Source: Escherichia coli
GTDB taxonomy: Bacteria; Pseudomonadota; Gammaproteobacteria; Enterobacterales; Enterobacteriaceae
Length of the DNA stretch: 64,000 bases
Strand: one strand, 5' to 3'
Assembly (NCBI RefSeq): GCF_048403405.1
Contig: NZ_CP183129.1
Shown here in pieces: positions 52,978 through 55,900 of the stretch (positions within the stretch are counted from its first letter, which is position 1; each line of letters begins with the position of its first letter). Made by a program: the position numbers.

Positions 52978-55900
52978 TTATCGTTATGATCTACAAAAGC
53001 CACCAGCATAACAAATCCGTGGTCGGTGGCAAAAAAAGCAGATTTCGCTTATTAAAACTGCACATTGATTGAAGTTTGAATAAACGCGCGATTTTTTAAA
53101 AAAGTTTGTTGACCTCAGGTCATGATTTCCCTAAATTAGCGCCCGTTCCAGCAAGACAGGAACGACAATTTGGTGAGGTGTCCGAGTGGCTGAAGGAGCA
53201 CGCCTGGAAAGTGTGTATACGGCAACGTATCGGGGGTTCGAATCCCCCCCTCACCGCCATATTTAAAGAAGAGCTCGTACGAAAGTACGAGCTTTTTTTT
53301 CGTATATTGCATAGACCGGGGGGATGAGAAGCCCCAGGCGGAGGTCGACAACTAGCGACAGACTCATTCATCATCCTTGCGGTTGATAAGAATTTCTGCC
53401 TCTTTTACTACCACCTTATTACGCCCGGTCTCTTTCGCCTCGTAAAGTGCGTTATCAGCCAGTTGATAGATCTCCTTAGGGTTTAACTCATTTTTCTGCG
53501 TTACAACAGCGCCAATACTAATCGTCACTTTTTGTGGTATGGCGTATTCAGGATTATCACCAGTTAAACGCTCAACATTTTCCCGAATCCTTTCCGCTAA
53601 AGCTTTCGCACGTTCAGTATCGATGTCCGTCAGCAAGACGCCAAACTCTTCGCCGCCGACGCGCGCAAAAAGGTCATCTGGCCGTATGCTTTTCCCAATT
53701 ATACTCACCACTGTTTTTATCACCTGATCGCCAACCGGATGCCCCCAGGTGTCGTTGACTTTTTTGAAGTGGTCGATATCCATAATCATGACGCAATAAG
53801 GCGTTTTTTTGGCCGATGCTGATTGAACTGTCAGTTCATTAAAAAAATAATTTCTGTTAAATATATTGGTTAAGGAATCGCGATGTGCAATGTCCTTTGT
53901 TACTCGTAGCGCACTGAATATATGGCACATAAATATTACCATAACGGTTAACTTACTGACTACTTCAATAGTGCGACTAATATACCAAATGGACACGCTA
54001 TACCTGCTCATAAATAAAAGAGAGACATTGTACAGTACGGCACAAAAAGCAATCACCGTCACTCCATTCCAGATATCACAGCGTAAACCATTAAAGTATA
54101 GATTAACTGAAAGCAAGGTTAACCACATGAAAATCATTATGGTAACATATGATGTTTTCCAAACCACCTGATCATTTTCATTGGTTAACTCGGCAATGTG
54201 TAAATTGTAGCTCTCATAATGACTAGAAAGTATGTGAGCAACTATCGGCCCCCCAACAACAAAAAACAAACTTATGCACAAAGTCATTTTTTTGGAAAAT
54301 AAATTGCGCTGTTTTGTGTTTTCACTAACTTTATTCACCAATGCCAGAAATATTAATATGCACAAACTCATCTGACGAAACAAATAATAGATTGCAATGT
54401 CATTTTGAACAACACTGCTTGTCAAACGCCCCTCAATAATTTGCTGAATGATAATGACGGTTTTAACAAAGTAAATCAAACAACTCAGAAAAGCCAAACT
54501 AAGTATACAGTTTGAAAATTGCCTACGGTCATAAATGAAATACAACTGCATAAAAATAAATGCAACAGTATCGATAAAAAATAAAGCAATCATTACCATC
54601 AGATAGGTTGATCGTGGAACAACTTCCTCAACGCCTGGCTGATTAAACCAACTATTCACCAAAACCAAAGCAAGCCCAAACAATAAGCTCACTAATACAG
54701 TACTACTAATTCTCAAATAGTCTTTTTCCATAAAGCTACACCAATCTGTAGGTTGTAGATCCCTTTCTATTATTAATAGATATAAGAACTGTACTGTTGT
54801 CAATATGAAATTCCGCCCACAAACAATACCGATGATGATAGTTGCATACCGCAATTATTATTGCCTTAGTGCTTTATACATTCTTCGCGACAAGACAGGC
54901 TTGCAAATACATATAAATGGTTATAAGGAAATCCTTATAAAACATTAATTCATAGATATATTAGGAATAACAATTGAATCCGTGAGTACAGTAACGCTGC
55001 ACTTCATCAGGACTTTCGAAAAATCCGATATCATGCATCGGAATTTACTGATTTAATTATTTTAATCCTAATTTATTTTGAAAAAGGCATTGGGATTTAT
55101 GCCGTATTCCTGAAGTTCCTCATCATTGGAATGGATTTTCAGGCGAGAAAAGGATTTTATATGGATACTCTACTCATCATTTCTTCTTCTCATCATCAAC
55201 AATTCACGTCTCTCTTCCGCGTTTAATAACGGATTATGATGTGCAAAAAAAATATCTTTCGTTTCAGTTACCTGTAATTAGATACAGAGAGAGATTTTGG
55301 CAATACATGGAGTAATACAGGATGTATTCAAGTAGCAGAAAAAGGTGCCCGAAAACCAAATGGGCTTTGAAAATTCTTACTGCCGCATTTTTAGCAGCGA
55401 GTCCCGCGGCGAAGAGTGCTGCTAATAATGCCTATGATGCATTGATTATCGAAGCTCGCAAGGGAAATACTCAGCCAGCTTTGTTATGGTTTGCACAAAA
55501 ATCAGCACTCAGTAATAACCAAATTGCTGACTGGTTACAGATTGCCTTATGGGCCGGGCAAGATAAACAGGTTATTACCGTTTACAACCGCTACCGTCAT
55601 CAGCAATTACCAGCGCGTGGTTATGCAGCTGTCGCCGTCGCTTATCGTAACCTGCAACAATGGCAAAACTCGCTTACACTGTGGCAAAAGGCACTCTCTC
55701 TGGAGTCGCAAAATAAGGATTATCAACGGGGACAAATTTTAACCCTGGCAGATGCGGGTCACTATGATTCTGCGCTGGTTAAACTTAAGCAGCTTAACTC
55801 TGGAGCACCGGACAAAGCTAATTTACTCGCAGAAGCCTATATCTATAAACTGGCGGGGCGGCATGAGGATGAATTACGGGCGATGACAGGGTCATTACCT

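What the first reader, a model, noticed from the sequence alone, without database searches (positions are those of the whole stretch)
55088..55321. pgaA leader rich in GGA motifs
The region upstream of pgaA contains several GGA triplets (tggaatggat, aaaggatttt, tatggatact, acggattat, catggag, acaggatg), with the last overlapping the ribosome binding site and start codon. This fits multi-site CsrA repression of PGA synthesis.
Basis: partly seen in the sequence, partly recalled or inferred. Interest (0 to 1): 0.25.

Follow-up and report, generated by a model that had tools for sequence, protein, structure and literature searches.

The report
Known CsrA-controlled pgaA mRNA leader
This is the well-studied untranslated leader of the E. 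coli pgaABCD biofilm-polysaccharide operon, whose GGA motifs are binding sites for the RNA-binding repressor CsrA; the copy here is a slightly variant allele and is ordinary.

Summary
The 237 nt upstream of pgaA (55085-55321), plus the start codon, carry eight GGA triplets. That compares with 2.2-4.7 expected (P 0.0007 by mononucleotide shuffle, 0.02 by dinucleotide shuffle). The window is E. coli. Its leader is about 97% identical to K-12: six substitutions and a 3-nt A-run insertion. All eight GGAs are conserved.

In K-12 this leader is an established CsrA target (Wang 2005; Figueroa-Bossi 2014). It has six footprinted sites:
- Two lie on the left arm of a weak hairpin (+61..+107) that hides a Rho-loading (rut) site.
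- I could not place the other two.

The hairpin, the C-rich/G-poor rut stretch and both distal sites are intact here.

Corrections:
- The K-12 transcription start corresponds to 55085, not 55088.
- A GGA at 55093 was not listed.

Comparison of 11 leaders shows three GGAs invariant: site 1, the start-codon site, and a GGA in the loop of a conserved 5'-terminal stem-loop. No accessible source describes that last one as a CsrA site.

Already known; low interest.

The parts
55085..55321 (+). pgaA 5' untranslated leader (237 nt in this allele; K-12 +1 aligns to 55085)
   Evidence: Alignment to K-12. The K-12 leader sequence starts AGGCATTGGG with its start codon at position 235 (Leistra 2018 supplement). 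The 234-nt UTR length is stated in PMC4052769.
55086..55103 (+). 5'-terminal stem-loop (+2..+19), GGCAU/AUGCC stem with the 8-nt loop UGGGAUUU; GGA at 55093-55095
   Evidence: Predicted in the MFE and centroid structures. The GGA is unpaired with P about 0.93. The GGA and 4 stem pairs are kept in all 11 leaders, with one G:C to A:U compensatory change. RNAalifold recovers it independently. It lies upstream of +61..+81, where PMC4052769 places the 5'-proximal pair of mapped CsrA sites.
55109..55143 (+). Predicted hairpin +25..+59, carrying GGA +44 (55128) and +49 (55133) in its 3' arm
   Evidence: Seven pairs show changes on both sides across 11 leaders. RNAalifold recovers it. These GGAs are lost in L007 and in Citrobacter.
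55145..55165 (+). Left arm of the attenuator hairpin (+61..+81), holding CsrA sites 1 (AAAGGAUUU, GGA 55152-55154) and 2 (UAUGGAU, GGA 55163-55165)
   Evidence: PMC4052769 states that segment 61-81 holds both 5'-proximal CsrA sites. The fold places the hairpin at exactly +61..+107. Site 1 is invariant in 11 leaders.
55166..55191 (+). [quoted passage not shown]
   Evidence: PMC4052769. The window differs from K-12 at +82 (C>U, 55166) and +88 (G>A, 55172), turning a predicted C:G pair into U:A.
55166..55219 (+). C-rich, G-poor rut-like stretch (19 C, 2 G, 15 YC dimers in 54 nt)
   Evidence: It matches the C>G bubble at +50..+130 described for K-12.
55229..55237 (+). ACGGAUUAU (GGA +147, 55231-55233), probably one of the two central mapped sites
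   Evidence: It is the only GGA between the hairpin and the SD. It is conserved in E. coli alleles and L007 but lost in L003, L012 and Citrobacter. Its assignment to Wang-2005 site 3 or 4 is unverified.
55306..55312 (+). CAUGGAG, the Shine-Dalgarno sequence and CsrA site 5
   Evidence: Identical to K-12. Sites over the SD and the AUG mediate translational repression. The GGA is kept in 10 of 11 leaders.
55317..55324 (+). ACAGGAUG, CsrA site 6 overlapping the pgaA start codon (ATG 55322-55324)
   Evidence: Identical to K-12. UACAGGAUGUAU is invariant in all 11 leaders.
55322..57745 (+). pgaA coding sequence (807 aa), the first gene of pgaABCD
   Evidence: 98% identity to the E. coli PgaA cluster.

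Best explanation
The interval is the 5' untranslated leader of the E. coli pgaABCD mRNA, a multi-site target of the RNA-binding protein CsrA. CsrA dimers bind GGA-centred sites and shut the operon down in two ways. First, binding to the two sites on the left arm of a marginally stable hairpin (+61..+107; 55145-55191) stops the hairpin from forming. That exposes the C-rich rut sequence on the right arm, so Rho terminates transcription inside the leader. Second, binding to the sites over the Shine-Dalgarno sequence (55306-55312) and the start codon (55317-55324) blocks ribosome loading on transcripts that escape termination. What is shown here: the sequence identity, the intact motifs, the predicted hairpin and the rut composition. 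What is shown only in K-12 by others: CsrA binding, Rho dependence and translational repression. What is inferred: that this allele behaves the same way.
For: The ORFs downstream are pgaABCD. The leader is about 97% identical to K-12, with all 8 GGAs conserved and the last 60 nt before the ATG identical. It is present in 4250 of 5426 complete E. coli genomes. ViennaRNA places a two-part hairpin at exactly +61..+107 in both alleles, at -6.0 and -6.4 kcal/mol, as described for K-12. The GGAs at +68 and +79 are base-paired in it (P unpaired 0.01-0.18), while the SD and AUG GGAs are mostly open (0.6-0.9). The right arm and beyond hold 19 C against 2 G. The published experiments are six footprinted sites, site 5/6 mutants, deletions of the hairpin's left and right arms (named ΔL and ΔR in that paper), hairpin-stability mutants, and in vitro Rho termination restored by CsrA (PMC4052769; PMC7652899; PMC12360218). 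In the comparison across leaders, site 1 and the start-codon site are invariant in 11 leaders from Escherichia and Citrobacter. Paired cells are 82.5% against at most 49% in the slid controls, and 14 pairs show compensatory changes.
Against: Nothing was measured in this strain. GGA enrichment is only moderately significant under the dinucleotide control (P=0.02). The full-length leader does not fold better than shuffles (z=+0.56). RNAalifold did not recover the attenuator hairpin as a consensus across genera, and the single-sequence folds of L003, L007 and Citrobacter differ. The structure tested was derived from K-12, one of the aligned sequences, and 6 of the 11 rows are close E. coli alleles. 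The window allele changes two hairpin bases (+82, +88), whose effect on the finely tuned stability is unknown. The positions of mapped sites 3 and 4 are unverified.
Confidence: 0.93

Rival explanations
1. uORF-coupled attenuation. [quoted passage not shown] Ribosomes translating it would cover the rut site. CsrA would then act by repressing this uORF rather than by melting a hairpin.
For: The SD-like AAAGGA lies 7 nt before the AUG, mirroring sites 5/6 at pgaA. AAAGGAUUUNAUAUG is kept in Escherichia and Citrobacter even where the +79 GGA is lost (AUGAAC, AUGAG). ORFs of 19-21 codons ending at the aligned UAA occur in 6 of 7 distinct leader types. Both window-versus-K-12 changes inside it are synonymous (GAC>GAU, CUG>CUA). 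CsrA is known to act through a leader ORF at iraD.
Against: [quoted passage not shown] All three frames lack stop codons across the pyrimidine-rich rut region, so an open frame there carries little information. Nissle carries two nonsynonymous changes, and Citrobacter NCU1 has a frameshifted 10-codon ORF. In L007 the GGA abuts the AUG, too close to act as an SD. The same conserved bases are also explained by the hairpin: G80:U90 becomes A:U, and C82:G88 becomes U:A.
Confidence: 0.06
2. The GGA cluster is a chance or compositional by-product of an AT-rich intergenic region and has no regulatory meaning.
For: Under a dinucleotide-preserving shuffle the excess is only 8 against 4.65 (P=0.02). 1.5% of 243-nt windows in this 64-kb sequence reach 8. 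Three of the eight GGAs (+44, +49, +79) and the +147 GGA are not conserved outside typical E. coli.
Against: There is direct footprinting and mutational evidence in K-12 for an essentially identical sequence. Three GGAs are invariant across about 25% PgaA protein divergence while the flanking leader sequence diverges. The motif is strand-asymmetric, 8 GGA against 3 TCC.
Confidence: 0.02
3. The leader is mainly a base-pairing target of the small RNA McaS, which would compete with Rho at the right arm of the hairpin.
For: A proposed McaS target lies in +82..+107 (Thomason 2012, cited).
Against: Deleting the right arm (ΔR) does not abolish McaS activation, and activation is lost in a mutant that combines the left-arm deletion (ΔL) with ΔcsrA. 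McaS acts by titrating CsrA protein (PMC4052769).
Confidence: 0.02

Closest known systems
E. coli K-12 pgaABCD 5' UTR: CsrA-responsive Rho-dependent attenuator plus translational operator (Wang et al. 2005; Figueroa-Bossi et al. 2014)
   Same: Same locus and synteny (dgcT, leader, pgaABCD). About 97% identity, with all eight GGAs kept. The +61..+107 hairpin and the C-rich rut are the same, and the SD/AUG region is identical.
   Different: There are six substitutions (+32, +57, +82, +88, +156, +177) and an A5-to-A8 run, giving a 237-nt leader against 234 nt. The pair C82:G88 is replaced by U82:A88 in the upper helix, and the predicted hairpin is 0.4 kcal/mol weaker. This hairpin allele is the minority form: 423 of 4152 genomes match it exactly.
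glgC leader (CsrA: high-affinity GGA in a hairpin loop plus an SD site)
   Same: Multi-site GGA recognition by a CsrA dimer that bridges an upstream site and the SD; translational repression.
   Different: glgC has four sites and no Rho-attenuator hairpin. Here the 5'-proximal mapped sites are base-paired in a stem rather than displayed in a loop.
iraD leader (CsrA represses a translationally coupled upstream ORF)
   Same: Several CsrA sites in a long leader, and a short ORF is present in the leader.
   Different: For pgaA the uORF start-codon mutant had no effect, and the peptide is not conserved.

Membership tests
E. coli pgaA CsrA-regulated leader (Wang 2005 / Figueroa-Bossi 2014) | Lies immediately upstream of pgaABCD, divergent from dgcT (ycdT) | tested here: met
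   ORFs of 807/672/441/137 aa follow. An identical genome is annotated dgcT, pgaA, pgaB, pgaC, pgaD.
E. coli pgaA CsrA-regulated leader (Wang 2005 / Figueroa-Bossi 2014) | Sequence orthology to the K-12 234-nt 5' UTR | tested here: met
   Pairwise alignment shows 6 substitutions and one 3-nt indel over the leader. The leader is 96.3% identical to K-12 strains by blastn.
E. coli pgaA CsrA-regulated leader (Wang 2005 / Figueroa-Bossi 2014) | GGA cores of the 5'-proximal site pair (within +61..+81) and of the SD and start-codon sites are intact | tested here: met
   GGAs at +68, +79, SD and AUG are present and identical in core to K-12. Site locations are from PMC4052769.
E. coli pgaA CsrA-regulated leader (Wang 2005 / Figueroa-Bossi 2014) | The two central mapped CsrA sites (sites 3 and 4) are intact | tested here: inconclusive
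   Their coordinates are in Wang 2005, which is not held. The only GGA in that interval (+147) is conserved. Three variable positions (+156, the A-run, +177) fall in that interval.
E. coli pgaA CsrA-regulated leader (Wang 2005 / Figueroa-Bossi 2014) | [quoted passage not shown] | tested here: met
   MFE and centroid structures place it at exactly +61..+107. Energies are -6.0 kcal/mol (window) and -6.4 (K-12).
E. coli pgaA CsrA-regulated leader (Wang 2005 / Figueroa-Bossi 2014) | C-rich, G-poor rut region that begins in the right arm | tested here: met
   +82..+135 holds 19 C, 2 G and 15 YC dimers. The +91..+120 bin has 9 C and 0 G.
E. coli pgaA CsrA-regulated leader (Wang 2005 / Figueroa-Bossi 2014) | CsrA binding, CsrA-dependent Rho termination and translational repression | not testable with these tools
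   These are known only from K-12 experiments.
E. coli pgaA CsrA-regulated leader (Wang 2005 / Figueroa-Bossi 2014) | Transcription starts at the position equivalent to K-12 +1 | not testable with these tools
   The 45 nt upstream of 55085 are identical to K-12. The consensus scan finds no strong sigma-70 match on the + strand. From my own knowledge (Goller 2006, not held), this fits a promoter that needs the activator NhaR.
Generic CsrA/RsmA binding site (A(N)GGA, preferably in a hairpin loop) | GGA core with an A two bases upstream | tested here: met
   Five of eight GGAs fit ANGGA (+49, +68, +79, +147, SD), read from the contexts. The consensus is as quoted in PMC6028588.
Generic CsrA/RsmA binding site (A(N)GGA, preferably in a hairpin loop) | GGA presented single-stranded in a short hairpin loop | tested here: inconclusive
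   Only the +9 GGA sits in a predicted loop (P unpaired 0.93). The +68 and +79 GGAs are stem-paired, and the SD and AUG sites are open but not in a hairpin.

The most novel reading that the evidence does not exclude
The 5'-terminal stem-loop (55086-55103) presents an invariant GGA in an 8-nt loop (ARGGAWNU-like; AAGGAUGU in L007). Its stem is kept by a compensatory change across Escherichia and Citrobacter. It lies outside the region where the accessible literature places the mapped sites. It could be a seventh, high-affinity, loop-displayed CsrA site that seeds co-transcriptional binding or bridges to site 1. Alternatively it could be a 5'-end protective hairpin whose loop couples CsrA occupancy to mRNA decay.
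Probability: 0.25. Interest if true: 0.3.

Novelty: already known. Interest (0 to 1): 0.08.

Why it matters
It matters little as a discovery. The pgaA leader is the standard example of multi-site CsrA control and of a protein-triggered Rho-dependent attenuator. Its presence here only confirms that this strain carries the standard biofilm-polysaccharide switch.

Two details may interest specialists. First, about 10% of complete E. coli genomes carry a hairpin allele in which a C:G pair is swapped for U:A, in a structure whose borderline stability is reported to set the switch point. Second, across genera only three GGAs are invariant: site 1, the start-codon site, and a loop GGA in the 5' stem-loop that no accessible source describes as a CsrA site.

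Tried and rejected
- **Primary papers.** I tried to read Wang 2005, Dubey 2005, Goller 2006 and Jorgensen 2013 to get the exact coordinates of the six sites and of the promoter. None is held. Sites 3 and 4 and the NhaR boxes therefore stay unverified. The Figueroa-Bossi supplement is not held either.
- **Orthologous loci.** The genome-contig scan with PgaA returned only four loci. I added seven usable loci through the look-up of encoding contigs.
- **Distant PgaA loci.** Loci with 44-58% PgaA identity (Enterobacter, C. portucalensis, K. aerogenes, one metagenome) have non-homologous upstream regions, so they say nothing about this leader.
- **Rfam.** No family matches the leader at gathering or permissive thresholds.
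- **Promoter scan.** There is no convincing + strand sigma-70 match. The only terminator-like calls are on the minus strand, and one of them is just the 5' stem-loop palindrome.
- **uORF idea.** I pursued it and downgraded it. All three frames are stop-free in the rut region, the peptide is not conserved, and a published AUG mutant had no effect.
- **Cross-genus hairpin.** RNAalifold did not support the attenuator hairpin as a consensus, so I claim conservation of that hairpin only within Escherichia-type leaders.
- **Whole-leader stability.** The leader does not fold better than shuffled sequence (z about +0.5), so no global-structure claim is made.

Full report
**What is in the sequence**

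The interval 55088-55321 lies directly upstream of an 807-codon ORF (55322-57745). ORFs of 672, 441 and 137 codons follow it. A 100% identical stretch in E. coli GN02461 is annotated dgcT (divergent), then pgaA, pgaB, pgaC and pgaD. The ORF product is 98% identical to the main E. coli PgaA cluster.

They hold seven GGA triplets. An eighth lies at 55093. The last GGA (55320-55322) shares its A with the ATG, and GGAG at 55309-55312 is a normally spaced Shine-Dalgarno sequence.

**Is the GGA count more than chance?**

There are eight GGAs in 243-246 nt. The expectations are:
- 2.2 from base composition (P=0.0007).
- 2.65 per 243 nt on this strand across the window (1.5% of sliding windows reach 8).
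- 4.65 after a dinucleotide-preserving shuffle (P=0.02).

The reverse-strand equivalent, TCC, occurs three times. So the enrichment is real but would not be compelling on statistics alone.

**Comparison with K-12**

The window's leader aligns to K-12 (DH10B) with six substitutions and a 3-nt insertion in an A-run. All eight GGAs are conserved, and the last 60 nt before the ATG are identical.

The K-12 leader begins AGGCAUUGGG, with its start codon at position 235 (Leistra 2018 supplement). The 234-nt UTR length is given in PMC4052769. That +1 aligns to window 55085, so this allele's leader is 237 nt.

The leader occurs in 4250 of 5426 complete E. coli genomes, mostly at 95-99% identity to the window.

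**What is known about the K-12 element**

Wang et al. 2005 footprinted six CsrA sites in this leader. The two distal ones cover the SD and the AUG and mediate translational repression. Mutating them relieves about 60% of the repression.

Figueroa-Bossi et al. 2014 described the upstream mechanism:
- Positions +61..+107 form a weak, two-part hairpin.
- The right arm is the 5' half of a C-rich rut site.
- CsrA binding opens the hairpin, which lets Rho terminate within the leader.
- Stabilising mutations give read-through, and destabilising ones give termination without CsrA.
- Site 1, at the base of the stem, behaves as the seed for binding.

A 2025 review still lists this as the accepted mechanism. 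McaS acts by titrating CsrA, not by pairing with the leader.

**Anatomy in the window**

With +1 at 55085, ViennaRNA predicts three elements in both alleles:
- A 5'-terminal stem-loop at +2..+19.
- A hairpin at +25..+59.
- A hairpin at exactly +61..+107.

The local energy of the +61..+107 hairpin is -6.0 kcal/mol in the window and -6.4 in K-12.

| GGA position | Predicted state (P unpaired) |
|---|---|
| +68, +79 | base-paired (0.01-0.18) |
| SD and AUG sites | mostly open (0.6-0.9) |
| +9 | in a loop (0.93) |

Positions +82..+135 hold 19 C, 2 G and 15 YC dimers, matching the described C>G bubble.

- The second and third are sites 1 and 2.
- The fifth and sixth are sites 5 and 6.
- The fourth (+147) is plausibly one of the central sites, but this is unverified.
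- The first (+44/+49) lies outside +61..+81, so it is not part of the 5'-proximal mapped pair.

**Allelic differences**

Two of the six substitutions fall in the hairpin: +82 C>U (55166) and +88 G>A (55172). In the K-12 fold, C82 pairs with G88. The window allele can form U82:A88 instead.

The window's exact 60-nt hairpin sequence occurs in 423 of 4152 genomes. The A-run at 55245-55252 is A8 here, A5 in K-12 and A9 in strain WP5.

Given the reported sensitivity of the switch to hairpin stability, a small quantitative effect is possible, but that is only inference.

**Comparative test**

I collected homologous leaders from these sources:
- Four further E. coli alleles: Nissle, M24, JE86 and WP5.
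- Two E. coli-labelled divergent alleles with 79-80% PgaA identity (L003, L012).
- One sequence from a public sequencing run with 76% PgaA identity (L007).
- Two Citrobacter genomes (L004, L005).

Conservation of the GGAs in the 11-row alignment:

| GGA | Conservation |
|---|---|
| +9 (5' loop) | invariant |
| +68 (within AAAGGAUUU, site 1) | invariant |
| Start-codon block UACAGGAUGUAU | invariant |
| SD site | kept in 10 of 11 |
| +79, +147, +44/+49 | lost in several non-typical leaders |

I counted pairs for the K-12-derived structure on this alignment:
- 82.5% of cells paired, against 36-49% when the partners are slid.
- 14 pairs with changes on both sides, against a shuffled mean of 6.5 (0 of 500 shuffles reach the observed value).
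- Compensatory changes in the 5' stem-loop (G:C to A:U), the +25..+59 hairpin (7 pairs) and the attenuator hairpin (5 pairs).

Three caveats apply. The structure came from one of the aligned sequences. Six of the rows are close alleles. RNAalifold recovered the first two elements on its own consensus but not the attenuator hairpin, and the single-sequence folds of the divergent leaders differ. I therefore claim the attenuator hairpin only for Escherichia-type leaders.

PgaA loci at 44-58% identity have unrelated upstream regions.

**A lead that did not hold up: the uORF**

AAAGGA (site 1) lies 7 nt before an AUG at +77. That AUG opens a 21-codon ORF (55161-55226) spanning the rut site. The AUG is kept where the +79 GGA is lost, and similar ORFs of 19-21 codons exist in 6 of 7 distinct leader types.

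Several observations count against it:
- All three frames are stop-free across this pyrimidine-rich stretch.
- Nissle has two nonsynonymous changes.
- One Citrobacter leader is frameshifted to 10 codons.
- The conserved bases are equally explained by hairpin pairing.
- Figueroa-Bossi et al. report that mutating this AUG had no effect.

I give this reading about 6%.

**Verdict**

This is an already known element in a minority natural allele. No Rfam family covers it, but that reflects curation, not novelty.

The only mildly new point is the invariant GGA in the loop of the conserved 5'-terminal stem-loop. It lies outside the region where the accessible literature places the mapped sites. I give it about 25% to be a functional CsrA site. 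Overall interest is low.

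Noticed in passing
window 55086-55103: A 5'-terminal stem-loop of the pgaA leader has an invariant GGA in its 8-nt loop, and the stem is kept by a G:C to A:U change in L007. 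It lies outside +61..+81, where PMC4052769 places the 5'-proximal pair of mapped CsrA sites. On the minus strand the same palindrome scores as terminator-like.
   Followed up: partly
window 55161-55226: A 21-codon upstream ORF (MDTLLIISSSHHQQFTSLFRV) starts 7 nt after the AAAGGA of CsrA site 1 and spans the rut site. It is partly conserved as an open frame in related leaders, but the evidence for translation is weak, and a published AUG mutant had no effect.
   Followed up: partly
window 55166 and 55172: The window allele has U82 and A88 where K-12 has C82 and G88, a potential compensatory swap in the upper helix of the attenuator hairpin. The exact 60-nt allele is found in 423 of 4152 complete E. 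coli genomes.
   Followed up: partly
window 55245-55252: The length of the A-run in the leader is polymorphic: A8 here, A5 in K-12 and A9 in strain WP5-S18-ESBL-07. This looks like slippage-type variation between the +147 GGA and the distal leader.
   Followed up: no
L010 1232-1468 and L013 1140-1370: Enterobacter-type pga loci (PgaA about 50% identical) carry a conserved 76-78 aa ORF immediately upstream of pgaA, in place of the E. coli-type leader. The two copies are 49% identical and have no Pfam match. The L010 upstream region also holds 10 GGAs against 4.2 expected.
   Followed up: partly
L003, L012 and L007: Genomes labelled E. coli (and one from a public sequencing run) carry a divergent pga allele class, with PgaA 76-80% identical, in the same synteny with a MASE4-GGDEF gene. 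76 complete E. coli genomes match the leader at only 60-80% identity.
   Followed up: no
E. coli genome collection: Six or seven matches to the pgaA leader lie on plasmids rather than chromosomes, and some genomes have two or three places.
   Followed up: no
L001 1-1377 (K-12 DH10B): In DH10B the neighbouring dgcT (MASE4 domain gene) is a pseudogene truncated by an IS2 insertion about 590 bp upstream of pgaA. The window strain has an intact dgcT ORF (53364-54731, minus strand).
   Followed up: no
window 61560-61753 (+): There is an Rfam match to Ysr251 (a Yersinia antisense sRNA; 192.8 bits against a gathering score of 100). It starts 55 nt after the end of pgaD and lies opposite the 3' end of the phoH ORF.
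   Followed up: no
window 1059-1227 (-), 3088-3424 (+), 25120-25169 (+), 34300-34342 (+), 47480-47571 (+), 53172-53256 (+): Other Rfam gathering-level matches in the window, in the order of the coordinates given: SraB sRNA, rne 5' UTR element, PyrC leader, ES036, ES056, and a tRNA (tRNA-Ser in the annotated genome).
   Followed up: no
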